This document shows, piece by piece, positions 7,928 to 54,809 of a stretch of DNA of 59,835 nucleotides. The translations under genes were made by a program, and so were the position numbers. The number at the start of each line of letters is the position of its first letter. Within the stretch, counting starts at the first letter, position 1. Below the pieces are notes generated by a model. The model did no database searches. It saw only the letters and a list, made by a program, of their open reading frames with translations, and was not told the origin of the DNA. Origin of the DNA: a phage; sequence record PZ445421.1. One strand, given 5' to 3'.

Positions 7928-8391
7928 TCCCGTATCCGTTTCATTGGGTCGAAGATACCCTGAAATCACACTTAGTGAATAACTATGCTGAAATGTCACA
8001 CGCTATGGCGTGGAAGAACTTGACATTTGATGCCAGCGTCTTTAAAGTGTGGTTAAAGATTATGAATACCCCATCCAGTGAAGACCCTGTAACGTTAGGC
8101 CCTTATGGCGATAATGAAATGCGTGGGTTTTTGCAGATTGGTGTGTATTCACAGCTGACTATCGGTATTGAAGAATCTAACGCTGTTCTTGGACATGTGA
8201 GTAAAATCTTTAGTGTACCAAGACAGCTCCAGGCACCGGACGGCTGCATGTTAAGACTGACAAGAAAGACGTTTTCTCAGGGCGGGCAGACGTCAATTGC
8301 AGACTTCACTCGCGGTGGCGTTGAAGGTGTTTGGGATGCTCAATATGTAACAATCTACTGGCTCGCACGTGAGCCTAAACAGAGGATATAA
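7924..8391 (+). CDS. hypothetical tail protein
   Basis: 155-aa ORF coupled to neighbours. Confidence 0.5.
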   Translation: MIPYPFHWVEDTLKSHLVNNYAEMSHAMAWKNLTFDASVFKVWLKIMNTPSSEDPVTLGPYGDNEMRGFLQIGVYSQLTIGIEESNAVLGHVSKIFSVPRQLQAPDGCMLRLTRKTFSQGGQTSIADFTRGGVEGVWDAQYVTIYWLAREPKQRI

Positions 8392-8393
8392 CG

Positions 8394-9569
8394 ATGGCTG
8401 AAGGTTCACGTTATAGTAGCTATTACATCAAAGAACAGACCTCCGGTGTCACTCCGTCTAGCGGAACTCTGAAGGTCTTTCGTGCTACTAAATCGGGTCT
8501 TGATATTAAAGTCGCTACTCTGCAATCTGAAGAAATTCGAGATGACGCGGAAGTGGCGGATTTCCGTCTTGGTGCTCGTCACGTAGAAGGTACAGCAACG
8601 GGTGAACTGTCTTATGGGACATTTGATGACCTGTTGGGTGGTGCGTTACGTGGTACGTTTGCGGGTGAAGTGCTGACCGCAGGCATCGAGCGCCAATCCT
8701 TTACTTTTATCGACTATAACGCAGATATTGCAGACTTCCCGTATACCATCTATCGCGGTTGTGAAGTTAACAGTCTTGCAATTACTGTAAGTGCTGAAGC
8801 TATCACCGGCGTGGAATTCGGTATCGTTGGTCGTACGATGGAACAAGCTGCTACCCTGCCGTCTGGTCTAAGTAAAGGTACTCGTACGACTACACCACCT
8901 ATGGATGGCTTCTCTGGTAAGCTGGCTATGGGCGATGTGTCCGTTGATGTTATTACTGAGATGGCTATTAACCTTGAGAACGGCATTGAGCCTCGCTTTG
9001 TTGTTGGTTCCAAGTTCTCCATTAAGCCAAGCTCTAAACGCCGTCAGATTAGTGGTACACTGACCGCCTACTACGAAGATAACAAACTGCGTAGTAAGTT
9101 CCTGAACGAACAGGAAAGTGACCTGACTATTGACATCCTGGACGGAACTACTGGTGCCGGTTATCGCTTCAGTATGCCCCGTATCAAGATTACGGAAGCT
9201 CCGCGTCCGATCGATGGTGAAGGCGATATTATGCTGAACATGAGCTATACTGGTCTGTTGGATCAGGAAGAAGGTTACAGCATTCGCATTACTAAACTTC
9301 CTCCGATGTCTTTCACGACGGATCTTACCGCAAACAAGACTATCACTAAAGGGCAAACGCTGACCCTTTCTGTTGTGGTCAAAGGTGGTGCAGAACCTTA
9401 TACCTACGTGTGGAAGAAAGGTGGTGTCGTTATTGGAGGTGCTAATCAAGCTACATTCACTAAAGCTAACGCACAACAGGCGGATGCTGGTCAGTATGTA
9501 TGTGAAGTAACAGATTCACATGGCCGTACTATACCGAGCACACCTTGCCTTGTTGCTGTTACTGGTTAG
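8394..9569 (+). CDS. major tail (tube) protein with C-terminal Ig-like domain
   Basis: 391 aa; C-terminal ~90 aa has Ig-like signature (...YTYVWKKGG...AGQYVCEVTD...); placed before chaperone pair and tape measure; followed by terminator. Confidence 0.7.
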   Translation: MAEGSRYSSYYIKEQTSGVTPSSGTLKVFRATKSGLDIKVATLQSEEIRDDAEVADFRLGARHVEGTATGELSYGTFDDLLGGALRGTFAGEVLTAGIERQSFTFIDYNADIADFPYTIYRGCEVNSLAITVSAEAITGVEFGIVGRTMEQAATLPSGLSKGTRTTTPPMDGFSGKLAMGDVSVDVITEMAINLENGIEPRFVVGSKFSIKPSSKRRQISGTLTAYYEDNKLRSKFLNEQESDLTIDILDGTTGAGYRFSMPRIKITEAPRPIDGEGDIMLNMSYTGLLDQEEGYSIRITKLPPMSFTTDLTANKTITKGQTLTLSVVVKGGAEPYTYVWKKGGVVIGGANQATFTKANAQQADAGQYVCEVTDSHGRTIPSTPCLVAVTG

Positions 9570-9576
9570 TAATTGG

Positions 9577-9602
9577 AACGGGGTGTAAACCCCGTTTTAT
9601 TA
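9577..9602 (+). terminator. rho-independent terminator
   Basis: AACGGGGT-gtaa-ACCCCGTT followed by TTAT-rich run. Confidence 0.6.
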
Positions 9603-9612
9603 AGGAACTATT

Positions 9613-10041
9613 ATGTCTTCAGAAAACAAACAAGTATCCACTGAAGTTGCAAAGAAAGCTGTTAGTGCATCTTTCCGTGACTTTAACTTGAAAAAGAAAT
9701 TAGAGAACGCTCCGCTGCTGCATTACCCGCTCGTTTTCCCAGGACAGGGCGATACAGGTCACTGGTTGAAAATTCGCAACCGCCACAGCGAAGAATTTCG
9801 TCAAGCGGATTTAAAAGCACAACGTCAGATTAGTGCGCTTGTCGTTGCTAACGGATCTTTTGAAAAGATTGATAAAGACATGCTCGACGATATCAATATG
9901 CGAGCGTTCTGTAAGTTGGTTGCTTCGTGGAGCTTCGAAGAAGAATGTAACGAAGACAATCTTCTTGAATTCTTTGATAATAACCCGTTTGCGTATGACG
10001 ACATCAATCGTCTGGCAGCGCAAGATTCCCTTTTTTTCTAA
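9613..10041 (+). CDS. tail assembly chaperone (G-like)
   Basis: 142-aa ORF immediately upstream of tape measure; ends ...SLFF with a T7 run just before the stop. Confidence 0.65.
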   Translation: MSSENKQVSTEVAKKAVSASFRDFNLKKKLENAPLLHYPLVFPGQGDTGHWLKIRNRHSEEFRQADLKAQRQISALVVANGSFEKIDKDMLDDINMRAFCKLVASWSFEEECNEDNLLEFFDNNPFAYDDINRLAAQDSLFF

Positions 10042-10424
10042 GATCCCGCGAAAAGCTAATTGATCACTTACTGCTCGAATGGCAATTGCACAGTTGCCCG
10101 CCGGGCAGTAAGACTCCAACAATTAAACATCTCCAGCACGTTAAAAAAGTCACTGGTAAGACTCCCTCCTTACTAGCAAAGTACGAATCCAGCTCCGTAC
10201 CACACGAACTCAGATACATTTACAAGTTATTTCTTGACTTTTATAATGGTGATAAATTCAGTTACAGCGAATTTAACGCCTGGCAAGATTATATAGGTGT
10301 AGAACTTGATTTCAGAGAGCGTGAACTAATTCGGCAGATTTGTCTTGAACGGCAAGCATTTGATATTAGGCGTCAACAAGAACTTATGCAACACGCTCAG
10401 ACCAATAATAAAGGAGGTAAATAA
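9613..10424 (+). CDS. tail assembly chaperone, -1 frameshift extension product (GT-like)
   Basis: -1 frame from the slippery site is open and runs into track ORF 10086..10424 (same frame); this ends at the tape-measure start. Confidence 0.45.
10031..10037 (+). promoter_or_regulatory. slippery heptamer for -1 programmed ribosomal frameshift (U UUU UUC context)
   Basis: TTTTTTT run 2 nt before the chaperone stop; the -1 frame is open from here to 10424. Confidence 0.5.
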
Positions 10425-13400
10425 TGGCTGATGCAGCTGACATCGTCATTAGAGTCCGTGCTGAAGGTATTCAGAATGCTGAAACAGCACTGCGACGCTT
10501 GCAAGCGGCAGGTGTAAGAGTTGAGACTGTCAGCTCGCGTATGGAGAATGGTTTTCAACGTGCAGCTACAAGTGCTGACGCATTCCATCAGGCCATTAGT
10601 GCAATCTATACGGTAATGACTGTAACCACACTGACATCCTACGTCGGTGGGCTTGCTAAGTTATCGGATGCGTGGCTGGACGTCACTAACAAACTGGCTA
10701 ACGCCAACTCTGCAAACGAGCAGATGGTTGATATTCAAGATCGAGTGTTCGGTATCGCTCAAAGAACTCGTACGAGCCTGGAAGCTACGTCAACTCTTTA
10801 TGCTCGTATGGAACGTTCGCTGAACCAGTACGGTGTGACTGGCAAACAGGTCGCTCAGATCACTGAAACAATTAACAAGGCGATGATTGTTTCTGGTGCG
10901 ACAACTGCGGAATCTACTGCTGCTATTATCCAGTTCTCACAGGGTCTGCAATCTGGTGTGTTACGTGGGGACGAATTCCGTTCTGTAATGGAACAAGCTC
11001 CTCGTCTTGGTAAGATGATTGCAGATGGTCTCGGTGTTGGTACTGCTGGTCTTCGCCAGATGGCTAACGCTGGACAGTTGACCGCTGACGTTGTTATTAA
11101 CTCCATTTCTAAAGCTGCATCAACTATTGACGATGAGTTTAATCGTACAATACCAACGTTCTCTCAGCGAATGGAGATTGCGAATAACAACTTAATTAAA
11201 TTCGCGGGAACGTCAACCTCAGTACAAACTGTGGTCAATTCAATGGGTGCTGTGATCGAAACTGCTACAGACCACCTCACCTTGCTGTCCAATACGGCAA
11301 TCGGTGTTGCTGCTATTGTTGGCGGTCGAATGATCACTGCCCTGGCCGTACAAATTGCAGCATTCATCAAGCTCAATGCAATACAGGCAAGTAGCTCGGC
11401 TATAAACATTAAGACTATTGATGGTATCACACGATCCGCAGTAGCTCGCTATAATGAAGCACAAGCAACGTTAGCACAGGTTGCAGCCGAGCGCACCAAG
11501 ATTCAGGCGGCATTGCAAGCCAACCAAACGTATTATAAAGGTATAGCGACACTCAACGCATACATGCAGAATACGCGGCAGGCGCGCGAAGCTACGGAAG
11601 CGGTTGCTATTGCCCAGACTACCATGCAGGCGCGTATGGCTGCTGCGACCGTAGCGTCCCGTGTGCTTACTGTCACCATGACAGGCCTGCGGACGGTAAT
11701 GGGCTTGATGGGTGGACCTGTAGGTGTGGTCGCATTGGCTGCTGCCGCATGGTTCATGTGGAGTCAGAACAGTAAACAAGCTGTCCAGGATGCACAGAAC
11801 CTTGCTTCCTCTCAAGAAGATTTAAAGAACAAGTTAAAAGAAACAACTCTTGAACAACAACGAGCTCTTAGTGTTCAGTTGCAACGTGCCGCTATTACGT
11901 TGGACGAACAGATTGCTGCTGAAAACAGAGAGCTGGATGAATTAAAGAACCGTCTTAGTACAGTAAAGCGCTATCAAGAGGAAGCAACTGAAGGAACAAG
12001 CGAGTATAACCGACTCACTAAAGACCGTACGGAGTTAGAAGGTGACGTTGCTATTAAGATTGGTGAAATATCCACCCTTGAGCAAAAAGCACAACAGGTT
12101 AAATCTAATTTAACGACTGTACTGAACAATTTAACTGCTGCTGTAATGGGTCATACTGATGCACTCAAAGCGGAAAACGAGCAGTTGTCTATTAATATCA
12201 GTTCTGCTGCCGGTCGTTCACAGGAGCTAGTCAGTGCAATTCAAGCTCAGAATAATGAGTTAGATGTTGCTCAATTAAAGATGTCTGGACACGCACGACA
12301 AGCAAGTATCCTGAAAGATGCTCAGACAGCTCTTGGTAAGAAGTATAAAGAAAACGAAACGTTCATTAAGAACTATATCAGCGGCCATGCTGACGCAACT
12401 GCTGTATTAACGGATGAGCAGCAAGGACTAGTTGAACTTCTCAATTTATCCGGGAAGAACTACGACGCTCAGAAGAAGATCCATGAACAGCAAGAAAAAG
12501 AGCGTCAGAATAAGAAAGACAATAAAGCTGCCGCACGTTACGCTGAACAATGGGATAAAGCATATGAACGTGTGGAAGCGCGTGGTGCTACTGGTTTACA
12601 GCGTCTTAACTTACAGCAAGAAGCTGAAGTTCGTGCTATTCGTGATAAAGCCGAACGAGCTAAAGCATCTGAAGAAGAATTGCAGAACGCATTATTAGCT
12701 ATCCAACGTAAGTATGATCTGAAACGTGCAGAACTGGCGGAGCAGTACAAGCCAGGCGTTGCAATGGTGCGTGCGTACAAAGAAGCACAGCAAGAAATAA
12801 ATCAGTTGCTTGAAGCTGGTTTATTGACAGAGCAACAGGTATATACAGCTAGATTAAATCTGCAAGCGGATTATTATACAAAACGTGCGCAGATGCAATC
12901 CGAACTGAACCCGGCTGGACAAGCTGCTGATCAAGAAGCTGCTGAGCTTGCGGCACTTAAATCCCAGTATGAAACAGCGATTGAATTAGCCACTGGCAAA
13001 GAAGAGCAACTAACCGCTATCAAAGAGAACTATGAGCGCATACGACACGACATTCAGTTGAAGTACGCTCAGAAGCAGATGCTCGCACAGAATCAGACGG
13101 CAATGGCTTACATTGAAAGTCTAAGCTCTATGGCTGGGTCAATGACCACAATTATGGCGGCTGCTGGTGATGATGCTAGTGGTGCTTACAGGGTTATGTT
13201 CGCACTGTCTAAATCGTTCAGTATTGCTCAGTCGATGTTAAGCATTACCACCGCACTGTCGCAGGTGTTAGCGGATCCGACAGCATTGACACCGATGCAA
13301 AAGATGGCCAACTACGCGACTATTGCAGCCGCTGGTGCTAACATTATTTCAACATTGTCCAGTGTCACTCTTACTGGTATGGCTCATGATGGTATAGCCA

Positions 13401-13684
13401 ACGTTCCAGAAGAGGGTACATGGCTTCTGAATAAAGGTGAACGAGTTCTTAGTCCCCAACAGAACGCGGACTTTACTAACTTTATGAAGGGTCAATCAAA
13501 TACTGGCAATAATTCGGGTGGGGGTGTTATCATTAACCAGAACTTTAACATCCATGGTAATGGTGATGCAGCTTTGAAAAGCGCAGTTCAACAAGCTGCG
13601 AGAGATGGCGCCCAGCAAGGTTATAACATGGTACTCCAAGACTTTGCTAACCGTGGATCAATTAGAAAATTAGCGTTGGGGTAA
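10424..13684 (+). CDS. tail tape measure protein
   Basis: 1086 aa, Ala/Gln-rich coiled-coil, hydrophobic segments, SD 'GGAGG'; canonical position. Confidence 0.9.
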   Translation: MADAADIVIRVRAEGIQNAETALRRLQAAGVRVETVSSRMENGFQRAATSADAFHQAISAIYTVMTVTTLTSYVGGLAKLSDAWLDVTNKLANANSANEQMVDIQDRVFGIAQRTRTSLEATSTLYARMERSLNQYGVTGKQVAQITETINKAMIVSGATTAESTAAIIQFSQGLQSGVLRGDEFRSVMEQAPRLGKMIADGLGVGTAGLRQMANAGQLTADVVINSISKAASTIDDEFNRTIPTFSQRMEIANNNLIKFAGTSTSVQTVVNSMGAVIETATDHLTLLSNTAIGVAAIVGGRMITALAVQIAAFIKLNAIQASSSAINIKTIDGITRSAVARYNEAQATLAQVAAERTKIQAALQANQTYYKGIATLNAYMQNTRQAREATEAVAIAQTTMQARMAAATVASRVLTVTMTGLRTVMGLMGGPVGVVALAAAAWFMWSQNSKQAVQDAQNLASSQEDLKNKLKETTLEQQRALSVQLQRAAITLDEQIAAENRELDELKNRLSTVKRYQEEATEGTSEYNRLTKDRTELEGDVAIKIGEISTLEQKAQQVKSNLTTVLNNLTAAVMGHTDALKAENEQLSINISSAAGRSQELVSAIQAQNNELDVAQLKMSGHARQASILKDAQTALGKKYKENETFIKNYISGHADATAVLTDEQQGLVELLNLSGKNYDAQKKIHEQQEKERQNKKDNKAAARYAEQWDKAYERVEARGATGLQRLNLQQEAEVRAIRDKAERAKASEEELQNALLAIQRKYDLKRAELAEQYKPGVAMVRAYKEAQQEINQLLEAGLLTEQQVYTARLNLQADYYTKRAQMQSELNPAGQAADQEAAELAALKSQYETAIELATGKEEQLTAIKENYERIRHDIQLKYAQKQMLAQNQTAMAYIESLSSMAGSMTTIMAAAGDDASGAYRVMFALSKSFSIAQSMLSITTALSQVLADPTALTPMQKMANYATIAAAGANIISTLSSVTLTGMAHDGIANVPEEGTWLLNKGERVLSPQQNADFTNFMKGQSNTGNNSGGGVIINQNFNIHGNGDAALKSAVQQAARDGAQQGYNMVLQDFANRGSIRKLALG

Positions 13685-19150: not shown

Positions 19151-22100
19151 ATGACAATTCGTCTATATGGTGTCCTGACAGATGGTTTGAATAAACCTAT
19201 TGTTAATGCAACCGTATCCTTGATAGCAAGAAGTAACACTCTTACCGTGTTAGGTGGTAGCGAAGCTGTATTTCGCACAGACGCGCAGGGTGCATATAAT
19301 ATCACAGTGAACCCAGGGCACTATGTGGTCATAGTAGGCCCTCAAGGAAAAGAACCATATAAGGCTGGAGAAATTGTCCTATATGCAGATAGTCCGGGGG
19401 GATCACTTAATGGTTATCTTGTTAATTGGGTGGAAGAAGAACTAACACCAGATGTTATCAAACAAGTTCAACAACTTATGGCTGCTTCTGAAGAATACTC
19501 TTTGCAAGCTGGCCGCTCTGCTGCGGCAGCAAACGCAGATGCTACGGATGCTCGCAATAGTAAGGCTTCAGCTGCTCAATCTGCTTCGGAAGCCCTTGTG
19601 TATAAGAATGATTCTAAAACCAATGCTGACGCTGCTAAACAAGCACAGGCTGGAGCTGCTGGGTCTGCTAACACCGCTAACGCTGCGGTAACCACAATTC
19701 AAGGTATCCAAAAGGATGTCACAGCATCCAAGGACCGTGCTGTGACTGCGGAAACTAACGCTAAATCCAGCGAGAATGTGGCTACACAAGCTAAAGAGCA
19801 AGCTGTAGCTGCTAAGAATAAAGCTCAACAGATTGCAGATTCAATAGACCCGCAGTCTATTAAAAATTCTATCGGTCTTGGGTTGGCTCCTCGAAACTGT
19901 CCGGATATCTCAGGCAATCCATCAGGATATGTTGGATTTATGCGTATTATGAGCACGGCAACAGGCTTTCCATCGGTTGCATCCGGTGAAAGCAGTCTTA
20001 CGGGGTTTATTAGTCAGGCAGATGAAACTCCATCGTATACAGGTGTATTTCAGGGATGGGCTACGCGCTCGCTTTATACTTATCGCTGGAATCCGACAAT
20101 AGGCCCACAATGGACGCGCCACGCTCGCAAAAATGAAGTGGACCGTCTTAACCAATGGAGCAGCGAAACATGGATATATAACGCTGATGAATCTATGCGC
20201 CTGGGTTTAACCGGATCAACATGGGGGTGTTACAGCGACACACAAAAAAAATGGATACCACTTGATGTTTCTCATGGTGGCACTGGCGCAAATAGCCTTG
20301 ATGACGCCAAAACTAATTTGCAAATCCCTGAGGGTGGGTTAACAAAAGCGATGACCATTAATGCACCTGGTGGTGCAGTGGATGGCAAATACTACCCTGT
20401 CATAATAGACACATCCGCAATGGAAGGTTACGGCAACCTGACATGTCCTATTGATATAAAAACAGCAGGACGTTCATCATCAGACCCGCTTAATAGCAAT
20501 ACATTTAGTGGATATTTTCGATGCGGTGGCTGGAGTGACTCCAGAGATATAGCTTGCGGCTCATTTGTTGCCTATGACAAAAATGAGCTAGGGATACTTT
20601 GCCTTAAAGTATCGCAGAAAGACTATCCGCAATATGTAGCGTTCTATATCCATAAAGCCGCTTTCCCGATATTATTGCAAACAGGCTATAAAGCACGAGT
20701 CATTGTACCAACAGAAGATTATATAATCGGCACAAGCGGCGTTAAATATAAATTTGGTGTATCAACGTCAACAGAGGGTAACGCCGAGAACGCTGTTAAA
20801 AATGCTCTCGATTTCACTGGCGGTGAAAGCGGGTTTTATAGCAACCTGCCGTTCCGGCAAGGATACGCCTATAATGTCGCATTAACAAACGGGATGGTTC
20901 TTGATAATAATTTTGTCTTAACCGCTCCAGTATTTATGAACAATGGCGAGGTTAAAGCAACAAAATCTTTCACCGCGTACGGTACGGATGTTTCAAACAG
21001 AACATTTGTTTCTCAAAGATTACAATCCGAAGGAGGTCCGGTTGTCGATCAAACTGAACTAAGGGCTGGTAACGGGAAAGGTGAAATTGTTGTCAGGGAC
21101 ATAAATAATTCAGGGAACAGCAAGTTCTTTAATTTTAACCTTGATGGTACCTTCAGTTCTTATCAGGGATTGGTTGTTCACACAGAGCAAAACTGGAGCA
21201 CTCAACATACAGAGAATGTAAATAAGTTTAAGCCAATAGCAGGGAGCGCAGGCGGTCCTGACGGAACAATGGTTGTTGGCGGGTTCCATGCTCAATTTAG
21301 CGGTAATTACGTCACACAATTCGCCGGTCGCAACTCCAAATTTTGGGCAAGAAGCTTTGAGGCTGGGGTTGATAAGGGATGGAAACGACTATTAACAGTA
21401 GACGATCTCAATTCATCTACCGATCTTGCTGTCAGGTCATTAACCACATCTAACCCGGTAAAATCTGGCGGAGGGCGGATTAATGTCCTTGGAAGCACGT
21501 CAGATTATAGCAAAATGGATTGCTTTGTAAGTGGGTTTGATAGCACCGGTAATTCTCTCGCGTGGGCGTTGGGTTCATCAGTCGGCGTAAGTAAGATGCT
21601 GTCGCTAAAAAATTTCTTTAGCGGAGCTGAGATACTGTTAAATGGCAGTGATGAAGCAGTTCAACTAAAAACAGGTACTGTTGGTGGAGCCGCTGCGCAA
21701 GCAATTACTATAAATAAAGATGAAGTTTATTCAACTGTCAATTTTTCTATTACAAAAGGAGGTAAACGACTCTCTATAGAGAACAGTGCCAACTCGGAAT
21801 TATCGTTTAATATGAGGATATGGGGTTCCAGCACTCGTCAAAACGTTTTTGAGGTAGGCACGTCTGCCTCCTATCTGTTCTATGCTCAAAGAACATCACA
21901 GGGGCAACTGTTTGATGTAAACGGTAATATTAACTGTGTGACACTTAACCAATCTTCGGACCGTAGACTTAAAGACAATATCACTGTTATTGCTGACGCA
22001 ACAGGTGCTATCCGCAAGATTAATGGATATACTTACACCCTGAAAGATGGTGGTTCTAATAAGGCTGGCGTTATTGCTCAAGAAGTCATGGAAGCATTGC

Positions 22101-22333
22101 CCCAGGCTGTAGGTTCATTTATCCGATACGGCCAAGAGCTTCCAGGTCCAACAGCAGATGGGAACCGCTTGCGTGAGGAGGAACCATATCTTAACGTTGA
22201 CTATTCTGCGCTTACTGGTCTTCTTGTTCAGTTTGCTCGTGAGTCGGATGATCGTATTACGAAGCTTGAAACGGAAATCGAGGAACTTAAAAAGTTAGTC
22301 GCTACGCTTGTTAATAAAGAAACTCTACCTTAA
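19151..22333 (+). CDS. tail fibre protein with C-terminal intramolecular chaperone (peptidase S74-like) domain
   Basis: 1060 aa; Ala-rich N-proximal region; C-terminal '...SSDRRLKDNITVIADATGAIRKINGYTYTLKDG...GVIAQEVMEALPQAV' matches the auto-cleaving chaperone domain signature (from ~21956). Confidence 0.8.
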   Translation: MTIRLYGVLTDGLNKPIVNATVSLIARSNTLTVLGGSEAVFRTDAQGAYNITVNPGHYVVIVGPQGKEPYKAGEIVLYADSPGGSLNGYLVNWVEEELTPDVIKQVQQLMAASEEYSLQAGRSAAAANADATDARNSKASAAQSASEALVYKNDSKTNADAAKQAQAGAAGSANTANAAVTTIQGIQKDVTASKDRAVTAETNAKSSENVATQAKEQAVAAKNKAQQIADSIDPQSIKNSIGLGLAPRNCPDISGNPSGYVGFMRIMSTATGFPSVASGESSLTGFISQADETPSYTGVFQGWATRSLYTYRWNPTIGPQWTRHARKNEVDRLNQWSSETWIYNADESMRLGLTGSTWGCYSDTQKKWIPLDVSHGGTGANSLDDAKTNLQIPEGGLTKAMTINAPGGAVDGKYYPVIIDTSAMEGYGNLTCPIDIKTAGRSSSDPLNSNTFSGYFRCGGWSDSRDIACGSFVAYDKNELGILCLKVSQKDYPQYVAFYIHKAAFPILLQTGYKARVIVPTEDYIIGTSGVKYKFGVSTSTEGNAENAVKNALDFTGGESGFYSNLPFRQGYAYNVALTNGMVLDNNFVLTAPVFMNNGEVKATKSFTAYGTDVSNRTFVSQRLQSEGGPVVDQTELRAGNGKGEIVVRDINNSGNSKFFNFNLDGTFSSYQGLVVHTEQNWSTQHTENVNKFKPIAGSAGGPDGTMVVGGFHAQFSGNYVTQFAGRNSKFWARSFEAGVDKGWKRLLTVDDLNSSTDLAVRSLTTSNPVKSGGGRINVLGSTSDYSKMDCFVSGFDSTGNSLAWALGSSVGVSKMLSLKNFFSGAEILLNGSDEAVQLKTGTVGGAAAQAITINKDEVYSTVNFSITKGGKRLSIENSANSELSFNMRIWGSSTRQNVFEVGTSASYLFYAQRTSQGQLFDVNGNINCVTLNQSSDRRLKDNITVIADATGAIRKINGYTYTLKDGGSNKAGVIAQEVMEALPQAVGSFIRYGQELPGPTADGNRLREEEPYLNVDYSALTGLLVQFARESDDRITKLETEIEELKKLVATLVNKETLP

Positions 22334-54208: not shown

Positions 54209-54390
54209 GGTGTTCCCCTTCGGGTGAGGCGGGCGCGGAACCCGTGTCCCGCTTAAAAACCCCCTTTACCCTACGCAGTTATAATAGGACAACTGGGTAT
54301 CAGATGCAACTATTATCTGCATTATTTTAGAACTTTTTTAGTTGTGTTTCGTAATAATAACATCCGGTACTATGCGGTAGATGGTGTGCC

Positions 54391-54470
54391 GGAAATACCA
54401 GGTAGCGCGAGCGTGTCGAAAATACCAGGTAACAGCACGCGCCGAAAATACCAGGTAGCACATACATAGA
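54391..54470. repeat. iteron array: three direct repeats with 26-bp period (core GAAA(A)TACCAGGTARC)
   Basis: Units begin at 54392, 54418 and 54444; read directly. Confidence 0.7.
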
Positions 54471-54506
54471 CAGCACATAGTGGGCAGGTGGATAGTAACA
54501 GATGCA

Positions 54507-54531
54507 ACTATACTGGACGGTACAGTATAGT
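54507..54531. repeat. palindrome ACTATACTG-N7-CAGTATAGT
   Basis: Read directly; the 13-mer CAGATGCAACTAT also occurs twice (54301 and 54499). Confidence 0.5.
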
Positions 54532-54809
54532 CGTGTAATAGATAGCATACTAATCAAATAAAAATAATAACGCGTGTAACAATAAACAACGTTATAGTAG
54601 AGCGAGTGACAGTCACATGACGTAACAATCACCTCACTGACGATCACGGGACGTTATAGTAACGCCGCGGGGCGGCTCTTAGATCTCTGCCAAGGATTCT
54701 TCGTTTGTAGATTATCTCGTCACTAGACACTTTATATCCTCACCTCACCTGCCCTATATTGTTCGTATAAAGTTAATTCCGTATGTAAATACTCGAGAGG
54801 AGATCTATT

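What the first reader, a model, noticed from the sequence alone, without database searches (positions are those of the whole stretch)
9613..10424. Programmed -1 frameshift predicted for the tail assembly chaperone pair
A T7 run (10031-10037) immediately precedes the stop of the G-like chaperone, and the -1 frame is open from that run through the downstream ORF to the tape-measure start. This is the conserved G/GT arrangement of long-tailed phages.
Basis: partly seen in the sequence, partly recalled or inferred. Interest (0 to 1): 0.45.

Follow-up and report, generated by a model that had tools for sequence, protein, structure and literature searches.

The report
Phage tail chaperone G/GT frameshift
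This is the ordinary, already reported programmed -1 ribosomal frameshift that makes a long (GT) and a short (G) tail assembly chaperone in a 9g-like E. coli phage; it is real and well conserved, but not new.

Summary
The window is Escherichia phage FritzHoffmann (Nonagvirus). G ORF 9613-10041 ends ...CTT TTT TTC TAA. The T7 run is 10031-10037 and the in-register slippery heptamer T TTT TTC is 10032-10038. The -1 frame is open from 9999 to TAA 10422-10424, which overlaps the tape-measure ATG (10424). The fusion is 270 aa.

- The pair lies between the tail tube and tape measure genes.
- The T part hits Pfam Phage_TAC_18.
- The only early start-like codon in the T frame (TTG 10086) has no Shine-Dalgarno sequence and lies inside a hairpin.
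- The supposedly non-coding stretch 10042-10085 evolves as -1-frame coding sequence.
- T TTT TTC (or TTA) is kept in register in 22 lineages, down to 27% protein identity.

It is not new. The 2014 phage 9g paper reported this G/T frameshift and confirmed the motif by Sanger sequencing, but called it -2. Frame arithmetic shows -1; the -2 frame closes after 8 codons. Phage Seurat's record annotates the slippage; Nonagvirus records do not.

One extra: a conserved hairpin (10067-10112) lies 28 nt downstream, too far for a classical stimulator. Its role is unknown.

The parts
9613..10041 (+). Gene G: short tail assembly chaperone, 142 aa, stop TAA 10039-10041. GenBank bas20_0013, 'putative tape measure chaperone'.
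10032..10038 (+). Slippery heptamer T TTT TTC (X XXY YYZ in the G frame). It is part of the T7 run 10031-10037.
   Evidence: Unique in the window. Conserved in register in 22 lineages. It belongs to the H_HH.U_UU.Y class, which Sharma et al. 2014 list among the most efficient motifs in E. coli (PMC4066793).
10038..10424 (+). T segment: 128 codons in the -1 frame, CTA 10038 to stop TAA 10422-10424. It is translated only as the C-terminal part of the 270-aa GT fusion (9613-10038 joined to 10038-10424).
   Evidence: -1 frame open 9999-10424. Pfam Phage_TAC_18 E 4.6e-16; phrog_569 positions 160-249. Codon-position pattern of substitutions.
10086..10088 (+). TTG used as the start of the GenBank CDS bas20_0014 ('hypothetical protein'). 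Most likely not a real start.
   Evidence: annotation. No SD: -0.9 kcal/mol. It lies in the apical stem of the hairpin. Conserved -1-frame residues REKLIDHLLLEW lie upstream of it.
10067..10112 (+). Conserved RNA hairpin (11-bp lower stem plus 7-bp upper stem, MFE of the 110-nt stretch containing it -29 kcal/mol) inside the T segment, 28 nt 3' of the heptamer. Function unknown.
   Evidence: z -3.96. Strongest of 150 sliding windows over 8400-11400. More stable than synonymous recodings in 4 of 5 phage-record lineages and in 6 of 6 metagenome lineages. Four pairs with compensatory changes; 85% of cells paired against 20-46% for slid controls.
10424..13684 (+). Tape measure protein gene. Its ATG overlaps the T stop (TAATG). 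Strong SD AAGGAGGT 10411-10418.
   Evidence: Pfam TMP_3 E 4.3e-57. SD pairing -12.9 kcal/mol.
8394..9569 (+). Major tail (tube) protein gene with a C-terminal Ig-like domain, directly upstream of G.
   Evidence: Pfam Phage_tube_2 E 3.4e-41; Ig_3 and I-set on residues 307-389.

Best explanation
Most ribosomes translating gene G (9613-10041) terminate at TAA 10039-10041 and make the 142-aa chaperone G. A small fraction do something else. With tRNA-Phe in the P site (UUU 10033-10035) and tRNA-Phe in the A site (UUC 10036-10038), these ribosomes slip back one nucleotide on U UUU UUC. Both tRNAs re-pair with UUU. Translation then continues with CUA (10038-10040) through 128 more codons and gives a 270-aa GT fusion that ends one base into the tape measure gene.

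By analogy with lambda gpG/gpGT, the G parts coat the tape measure protein. The rare T domain recruits the tail tube protein. The ratio of the two products is fixed by the slip frequency.

Shown here: the frames, the heptamer, the lack of an independent start for T, coding-type evolution of the junction, family membership of the T part, and deep conservation of the heptamer. Inferred: that the shift actually happens, its efficiency (expected to be low, a few percent or less), and the chaperone roles.

A conserved hairpin 28 nt downstream is probably not a classical stimulator. What it contributes is open.
For: - Frames and heptamer.
- Gene order tube - G - T - tape measure, and Pfam Phage_TAC_18 on the -1 segment (59.2 bits, cut-off 27).
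- phrog_569 (256 positions) matches G at positions 5-125 and T at positions 160-249, so the family profile spans both halves.
- The only start-like codons in the T frame are TTG 10086 (SD pairing -0.9 kcal/mol) and ATG 10386, near the end.
- The region 10042-10085, non-coding in GenBank, varies mostly at -1-frame third positions (9/4/1).
- A tblastn of the fusion finds 172 phage records. In nearly all listed records that cover both halves, the match comes as two pieces in different frames.
- In-register T TTT TTC (19 lineages) or T TTT TTA (3 lineages) occurs in 22 lineages from Escherichia to Vibrio, Pseudomonas, Xanthomonas-group, Acinetobacter, Alteromonas and Variovorax phages. The preceding codon varies (CTT, AAT, GAT, AGT, GCT) but always ends in T.
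- Gene callers left the G-to-tape-measure gap empty in 4 of 6 metagenome contigs.
- The Seurat record annotates the homologous pair as a joined CDS with ribosomal slippage.
- The 9g paper reports the G/T frameshift and Sanger confirmation of the motif.
- The motif class is among the most efficient in E. coli.
- Biology of lambda G/GT: Atkins et al. 2016 review.
Against: - There is no direct evidence for the GT protein in this phage or any Nonagvirus.
- There is no stimulatory structure at the canonical 5-9 nt spacing and no SD-like element upstream, so efficiency may be low.
- The FF residues encoded by the heptamer are also conserved as amino acids, so part of the nucleotide conservation could be protein-level.
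- The published description of 9g says -2, not -1.
Confidence: 0.9

Rival explanations
1. Transcriptional slippage: RNA polymerase adds one extra U on the T7 run. A subset of mRNAs then encodes GT in one continuous frame, and the ribosome does not shift.
For: The site is a homopolymer run of 7, the only such run on this strand. One inserted base gives the same protein frame as a -1 ribosomal shift. Only a few percent of product is needed.
Against: Seuratvirus, Vid5, PSTCR4 and the Vibrio phages keep only T6. From my own knowledge, that is well below the run lengths of about 8-9 or more usually needed for appreciable slippage by bacterial RNA polymerase. The run is capped by C or A in all 22 lineages rather than being lengthened. 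That fits the ribosomal motif H_HH.U_UU.Y and not selection for run length.
Confidence: 0.05
2. T is an independent gene that starts at TTG 10086, as annotated in GenBank (bas20_0014, 112 aa). There is no recoding.
For: ORF finders and several GenBank records call a separate CDS.
Against: SD pairing is -0.9 kcal/mol, weaker than the mean of random positions (-1.46). The TTG sits in the stem of a stable hairpin. Conserved -1-frame residues and a coding-type substitution pattern extend upstream to the heptamer. Annotated starts in relatives are inconsistent or absent. The phrog_569 profile spans G and T.
Confidence: 0.03
3. A -2 frameshift on CCCUUUUUUU, as stated for phage 9g by Kulikov et al. 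2014.
For: The published statement (PMC4276943).
Against: The T frame is the G frame minus 1. In the window, (10038-9613) mod 3 = 2. In the 9g record, (43832-43359) mod 3 = 2. A -2 shift would read FFSKIPRKAN and stop at 10061-10063, adding 8 residues and never reaching T.
Confidence: 0.01
4. A homopolymer sequencing error: G and T are really one continuous ORF.
For: Homopolymer runs are error-prone. PaMx28 shows T6 where its close relative phiH1 has T7, and its T ORF then falls in the +1 frame.
Against: The T7 junction is identical in 12 Nonagvirus genomes and contigs. It is also present in the three Klebsiella/Escherichia relatives of the K9PH25C2 type and in six metagenome lineages. The run was confirmed by Sanger sequencing in 9g. 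The two-frame arrangement is conserved across distant lineages.
Confidence: 0.01

Closest known systems
Phage 9g G/T tail assembly chaperone genes (Kulikov et al. 2014, Viruses 6:5077, PMC4276943)
   Same: This is the same genus (Nonagvirus). The region is 96% identical in DNA and the junction sequence CCCTTTTTTTCTAA is identical. The paper reports nested G/T genes with a programmed frameshift and confirmed the motif by Sanger sequencing.
   Different: The paper calls the shift -2, whereas the frames require -1. The GenBank and RefSeq records of 9g and FritzHoffmann do not annotate any slippage.
Phage Seurat tape measure chaperone pair CPT_Seurat13/14 (KM236243)
   Same: It belongs to the same subfamily (Queuovirinae) and has the same gene order. 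The heptamer T TTT TTC is followed directly by TAA, T is in the -1 frame, and there is a hairpin at a similar distance. The record annotates a joined CDS with 'ribosomal slippage'.
   Different: Protein identity is only about 41%. The run is T6, not T7, because the preceding codon is AAT.
Lambda gpG/gpGT (Levin, Hendrix & Casjens 1993; Xu, Hendrix & Duda 2004, 2013, 2014)
   Same: The position between the tube and tape measure genes is the same. A -1 shift near the end of G gives a G-T fusion. The expected roles and the low G:GT product ratio are those described in the review read.
   Different: There is no detectable sequence similarity. Lambda's slip site is G GGA AAG (my own knowledge), whereas here it is T TTT TTC. 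Here the G stop follows the heptamer immediately.
HK97 tail assembly chaperone, PDB 2OB9
   Different: The match is weak (Foldseek E 0.8, TM 0.35-0.44), the model is of only moderate confidence (pLDDT 70.6), and identity is 12-17%.
Classical bacterial -1 frameshift cassettes (dnaX, IS911/IS3): heptamer plus a structure 5-9 nt downstream
   Same: There is a slippery heptamer of an efficient class, and a stable downstream hairpin exists. In the Pseudomonas, Stenotrophomonas, Variovorax and Acinetobacter phage relatives, a predicted hairpin starts about 6-9 nt after the same heptamer.
   Different: In FritzHoffmann and its enteric relatives the hairpin starts 22-35 nt after the heptamer (28 nt here). 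There is no SD-like element upstream.

Membership tests
Tail assembly chaperone G/GT pair with programmed -1 frameshift (lambda type; Xu, Hendrix & Duda 2004) | The pair lies between the major tail (tube) gene and the tape measure gene. | tested here: met
   Tube gene 8394-9569 (PF18906), G 9613-10041, T to 10424, tape measure gene 10424-13684 (PF20155).
Tail assembly chaperone G/GT pair with programmed -1 frameshift (lambda type; Xu, Hendrix & Duda 2004) | The second ORF is in the -1 frame, overlaps the 3' end of the first, and has no initiation signals of its own. | tested here: met
   The -1 frame is open 9999-10424, a 43-nt overlap. TTG 10086 has SD pairing of -0.9 kcal/mol and lies inside a hairpin.
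Tail assembly chaperone G/GT pair with programmed -1 frameshift (lambda type; Xu, Hendrix & Duda 2004) | A slippery heptamer X XXY YYZ lies in the 0-frame register within the overlap. | tested here: met
   T TTT TTC at 10032-10038. It is unique in the window. Its motif class is efficient in E. coli.
Tail assembly chaperone G/GT pair with programmed -1 frameshift (lambda type; Xu, Hendrix & Duda 2004) | The two-frame arrangement and the slip site are conserved in relatives. | tested here: met
   22 lineages keep T TTT TTC or TTA in register with a 109-133-aa -1 ORF. 172 phage records match, mostly as two pieces.
Tail assembly chaperone G/GT pair with programmed -1 frameshift (lambda type; Xu, Hendrix & Duda 2004) | Sequence membership in curated tail assembly chaperone families. 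| tested here: met
   T part: PF23812 Phage_TAC_18 at 59.2 bits, cut-off 27. G part: PF08748 below cut-off (17 vs 21.1), but phrog_313 'tail assembly chaperone' E 1.8e-14 and phrog_569 E 1.6e-30. No NCBIfam hit.
Tail assembly chaperone G/GT pair with programmed -1 frameshift (lambda type; Xu, Hendrix & Duda 2004) | G has the fold of solved tail assembly chaperones. | tested here: inconclusive
Tail assembly chaperone G/GT pair with programmed -1 frameshift (lambda type; Xu, Hendrix & Duda 2004) | Both G and GT are made in a fixed ratio with G in large excess, both are needed for tail assembly, and both are absent from virions. | not testable with these tools
   This needs proteomics and genetics. 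The lambda data are summarised in PMC5009743.
Classical -1 frameshift cassette with a 3' stimulatory structure (dnaX / IS3 type) | A stable hairpin or pseudoknot starts 5-9 nt after the heptamer. | tested here: not met
   The hairpin starts at 10067, 28 nt after the heptamer end. Only weak 4-bp pairings lie in between. No Rfam family matches.
-2 programmed frameshift (as claimed for phage 9g) | The downstream ORF lies in the -2 (= +1) frame relative to G. | tested here: not met
   The T frame is G minus 1. The -2 frame stops at 10061-10063 after 8 codons.
Transcriptional slippage site | A homopolymer run long enough for polymerase slippage (about 8-9 or more; my own knowledge), conserved as run length rather than as a codon register. 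| tested here: not met
   The run is T7 here and T6 in 7 of 22 lineages, and it is always capped by C or A. Transcript heterogeneity itself is not testable here.

The most novel reading that the evidence does not exclude
The conserved hairpin at 10067-10112 is a distance-acting frameshift stimulator. A ribosome that has already shifted pauses as it starts to unwind the hairpin, with its A site about 7-9 codons past the slip site. The next ribosome collides with it while sitting on U UUU UUC and is pushed into the -1 frame. GT synthesis would then be self-reinforcing and would depend on ribosome load. The 22-35 nt spacing in enteric Queuovirinae is roughly one ribosome footprint more than the canonical 5-9 nt. 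Smith et al. 2019 showed that a stalled lead ribosome stimulates -1 shifting in a trailing ribosome at 8-10 codon spacing.
Probability: 0.1. Interest if true: 0.55.

Novelty: already known. Interest (0 to 1): 0.15.

Why it matters
There are three practical points:
- The GenBank and RefSeq records of FritzHoffmann, 9g and the other nonagviruses lack the joined GT CDS. They carry a spurious 112-aa 'hypothetical protein', and in RefSeq the chaperone is misnamed 'tail length tape measure protein'. These should be corrected.
- The one published description gives the wrong direction of the shift (-2).
- The G/GT frameshift is universal in long-tailed phages, so one more instance adds little biologically.

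The only element with some research value is the conserved hairpin one ribosome-length downstream of the slip site. It could be a natural test case for collision-stimulated frameshifting. It could equally be a protective structure in a sparsely translated mRNA stretch.

Tried and rejected
- **Rfam:** a scan of 9500-10500 at E <= 1 gave no family.
- **PDB sequence search with the fusion:** only chance-level hits.
- **NCBIfam:** no hit.
- **Large protein search with the fusion:** it returned 20 proteins, all covering only the G half. No natural in-frame GT fusions were found, and there was no alignment depth for the T half.
- **Promoter and terminator scan of 8300-10700:** nothing above shuffled expectation. 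It did not flag the terminator-like hairpin after the tube gene.
- **Upstream SD-like stimulator before the heptamer:** I looked by eye and saw none.
- **Pseudoknot partners for 10039-10066:** I found no convincing complementarity.
- **A stop codon directly after the heptamer as a conserved feature:** rejected. The distance from the A site to the G stop varies from 1 to 32 codons among lineages.
- **Another candidate site, A AAA AAG at about 54339 on the - strand:** it lies in an implausible low-complexity ORF (54327-54647) and was dropped.

Full report
**Identity of the window.** The region 9300-10700 is 100% identical to Escherichia phage FritzHoffmann (Bas20, MZ501068.1; Queuovirinae, Nonagvirus). 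Window coordinates equal record coordinates minus 520. The region is 93-97% identical to 17 other records of 9g-like phages.

**The observation.** One search shows ...GAT TCC CTT TTT TTC TAA GAT CCC....
- The G ORF runs 9613-10041 (142 aa).
- The T7 run is 10031-10037, C is 10038, and the stop is 10039-10041.
- In the G frame the sequence reads CT[T TTT TTC], a canonical X XXY YYZ heptamer at 10032-10038.
- The -1 frame is open from 9999 to TAA 10422-10424, and that stop overlaps the tape measure ATG at 10424.
- The overlap zone is 43 nt and the fusion is 270 aa.
- The +1 (= -2) frame closes at 10061-10063.
- This is the only run of seven or more T on the + strand of the window. It is the only in-frame TTTTTTC among about 16,200 in-frame positions of a crude gene set, which holds 35 heptamers of any X XXY YYZ type. 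A chance heptamer in a 14-codon overlap zone has an expectation of about 0.03.

**What the genes are.**
- The upstream gene (8394-9569) is a tail tube protein (PF18906, E 3e-41) with a C-terminal Ig-like domain.
- The downstream gene (10424-13684) is a tape measure protein (PF20155, E 4e-57).
- The -1 segment matches Pfam Phage_TAC_18 at 59.2 bits against a cut-off of 27.
- G matches Phage_TAC_4 only below threshold (17 vs 21.1 bits). It matches phrog_313 'tail assembly chaperone' at E 1.8e-14 and phrog_569 at E 1.6e-30.
- phrog_569 is 256 positions long. It is hit by G at positions 5-125 and by T at positions 160-249, so the family profile spans both halves.
- An AlphaFold model of G built on 20 metagenomic homologues has moderate confidence (pLDDT 70.6).

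**T has no translation start of its own.**
- The only start-like codons in the -1 frame after the slip site are TTG 10086 and ATG 10386. GenBank uses the TTG for the 'hypothetical protein' bas20_0014.
- The best anti-Shine-Dalgarno pairing before TTG 10086 is -0.9 kcal/mol. That is weaker than the mean of random positions (-1.46). It compares with -6.1 for G, -5.8 for the tube gene and -12.9 for the tape measure gene.
- The TTG is buried in a hairpin stem.
- Among 12 Nonagvirus sequences plus three 60%-identical Klebsiella/Escherichia relatives, the supposedly non-coding stretch 10042-10085 varies at 9, 4 and 1 columns in -1-frame codon positions 3, 1 and 2. This coding-like pattern appears in that frame only.
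- The peptide REKLIDHLLLEW encoded there is conserved in more distant lineages.
- Annotated 'T' starts in relatives are inconsistent. In 4 of 6 metagenome contigs the gene caller left the whole gap between G and the tape measure gene empty.

**Conservation.**
- A tblastn of the 270-aa fusion finds 172 phage records. In nearly all listed records that cover both halves, the match comes as two pieces in different frames.
- I examined 22 lineages with 27-100% protein identity: Nonagvirus, Klebsiella phages, six metagenome lineages, Vid5, EC151, Seuratvirus, Providencia, Vibrio, Stenotrophomonas, Variovorax, Pseudomonas, Acinetobacter and Alteromonas phages.
- The G frame carries T TTT TTC in 19 of them and T TTT TTA in 3. 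In all 22, a -1 ORF of 109-133 codons follows.
- The amino acid before the FF pair varies (Leu, Asn, Asp, Ser, Ala), but its codon always ends in T. The two Phe codons are always TTT then TTC, or the pair is TTT then TTA (Leu).
- The T run is 6 or 7 and never longer. The distance from the slip site to the G stop varies from 1 to 32 codons.
- So the heptamer itself is under selection. Neither the run length nor the adjacent stop is.
- The one exception is PaMx28, which has T6 where its relative phiH1 has T7. That puts T in the +1 frame and is most simply a homopolymer sequencing error.

**Mechanism.**
- U UUU UUC lets both Phe-tRNAs re-pair cognately after a one-base backward slip.
- Sharma et al. 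2014 place H_HH.U_UU.Y among the most efficient -1 motifs in E. coli. They state that cognate A-site re-pairing is the main rule in bacteria (PMC4066793).
- The biology expected of the products comes from lambda, summarised in Atkins et al. 2016 (PMC5009743). G in large excess and rare GT bind the tape measure protein, and the T domain recruits the tube protein. Neither product ends up in the virion.
- None of this has been shown experimentally for nonagviruses.

**Prior knowledge.**
- Kulikov et al. 2014 described phage 9g, the type phage of the genus. [quoted passage not shown] They give the motif as 5'-CCCUUUUUUU, 'confirmed by targeted Sanger sequencing' (PMC4276943).
- They call it a -2 shift. 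That does not fit. In the 9g record (43832-43359) mod 3 = 2, and in the window (10038-9613) mod 3 = 2, so T is in frame G minus 1. A -2 shift would add only SKIPRKAN.
- The record of phage Seurat (same subfamily, about 41% identity) annotates the homologous pair as a joined CDS with ribosomal slippage.
- No Nonagvirus record that I inspected does so.
- The finding is therefore already known in substance. My contribution is the corrected direction, the breadth of conservation and the annotation gap.

**A conserved hairpin downstream.**
- Bases 10067-10112 fold into an 11-bp plus 7-bp hairpin. The MFE of the 110-nt stretch 10031-10140 that contains it is -29.1 kcal/mol, z -3.96 against dinucleotide shuffles.
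- It gives the strongest signal of 150 sliding windows between 8400 and 11400.
- I compared it with recodings that keep the T protein sequence but redraw synonymous codons.
  - Nonagvirus: z -2.2 to -3.5.
  - Kpn2-P2 group: about -3.9 to -4.5.
  - Vid5: -4.0.
  - Seuratvirus: -2.8 to -3.4.
  - The six metagenome lineages: -2.4 to -4.9.
  - The EC151 group: only -1.5.
- In a gap-free alignment of 13 sequences, 85% of cells pair, against 20-46% when the partners are slid. Four pairs show compensatory changes: 36-81 CG/UA, 39-78 AU/GC, 54-63 AU/GC and 46-72 GC/CG.
- The support is moderate, because few independent events underlie these counts.
- The hairpin starts 28 nt after the heptamer here and 22-35 nt after it in the other enteric lineages. 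That is far beyond the 5-9 nt of classical stimulators.
- In the Pseudomonas, Stenotrophomonas, Variovorax and Acinetobacter phage relatives, a predicted hairpin starts 6-9 nt after the same heptamer (MFE only).
- Only ribosomes that have already shifted can reach the FritzHoffmann hairpin, because the G stop follows the heptamer directly.
- Possible roles:
  - masking the spurious TTG start;
  - protecting a sparsely translated 380-nt stretch from Rho or RNases;
  - pausing a shifted ribosome so that the next one collides while on the slip site.
- On the third role, Smith et al. 2019 found that a stalled lead ribosome stimulates -1 shifting in the trailing ribosome at an A-site spacing of 8-10 codons (PMC6815119). 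The geometry here gives about 7-9 codons.
- I rate that reading at about 10%.

**Rivals.**
- **Transcriptional slippage** cannot be excluded as a minor contributor on T7. It is disfavoured by the T6 relatives and by the capped run.
- **Independent initiation of T** is disfavoured.
- **A -2 shift** is excluded by the frames.
- **A sequencing error** is excluded by the many independent genomes and the Sanger check.

**Verdict.** The kind is already known, and the shift has been reported for this genus. Interest is low, with a small upside in the hairpin.

Noticed in passing
window 10067-10112: A conserved stable hairpin lies inside the T coding segment, 28 nt downstream of the slip site. It is more stable than synonymous recodings in most lineages and has a few compensatory pairs. 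The spacing is non-canonical for a frameshift stimulator, and the function is unknown.
   Followed up: yes
literature on phage 9g (PMC4276943) versus window 10031-10063: The 9g paper states that the G/T shift is -2. The frames in 9g and in this window require -1, and the -2 frame closes after 8 codons (SKIPRKAN*).
   Followed up: yes
window 9577-9601: A terminator-like hairpin (AACGGGG TGTAAA CCCCGTT, then TTATT) lies between the tube gene stop (9569) and the G start (9613). The sliding-window fold z is about -3.1 to -3.3. Some related GenBank records list a 'terminator' feature within the matched 1.4-kb stretch, but I did not check its position. The simple terminator scan did not flag the hairpin. 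It may lower transcription of G, T and the tape measure gene relative to the tube gene.
   Followed up: partly
window 8394-9569; L004 (Salmonella phage SE1, NC_042025) 592-1774: The tail tube protein carries a C-terminal Ig-like domain (residues about 307-389). In SE1 a single extra T at the tube/Ig junction (CTTCC-TCC becomes CTTCCTTCC) splits the gene into two overlapping CDS. This is either a sequencing error or a natural variant that has lost the Ig domain. It is not at a slippery heptamer.
   Followed up: partly
GenBank/RefSeq records of 9g, JenK1, JenP1, JenP2, SE1: The RefSeq re-annotation names the G chaperone 'tail length tape measure protein' and the tube protein 'Hoc-like head decoration'. 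Both names look inherited from PHROG family labels and are misleading. The T ORF is 'hypothetical protein' or missing.
   Followed up: partly
L018 (Pseudomonas phage PaMx28, NC_028931) about 883: PaMx28 has T6 at the homologous slip site where its relative phiH1 has T7, so its T ORF appears in the +1 frame. This is probably a homopolymer sequencing error in that record.
   Followed up: partly
window 20244-20251: An A8 run, the longest homopolymer in the window, lies in-frame as A AAA AAA inside the 1060-aa ORF 19151-22333. It could be a slippage-prone site. I did not examine it further.
   Followed up: no
L033-L036 (metagenome contigs): Automatic gene calling leaves a gap of about 370 nt with no called gene between G and the tape measure gene in 4 of 6 related metagenome contigs. 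Gaps of this kind could flag unannotated G/GT frameshifts in bulk data.
   Followed up: partly
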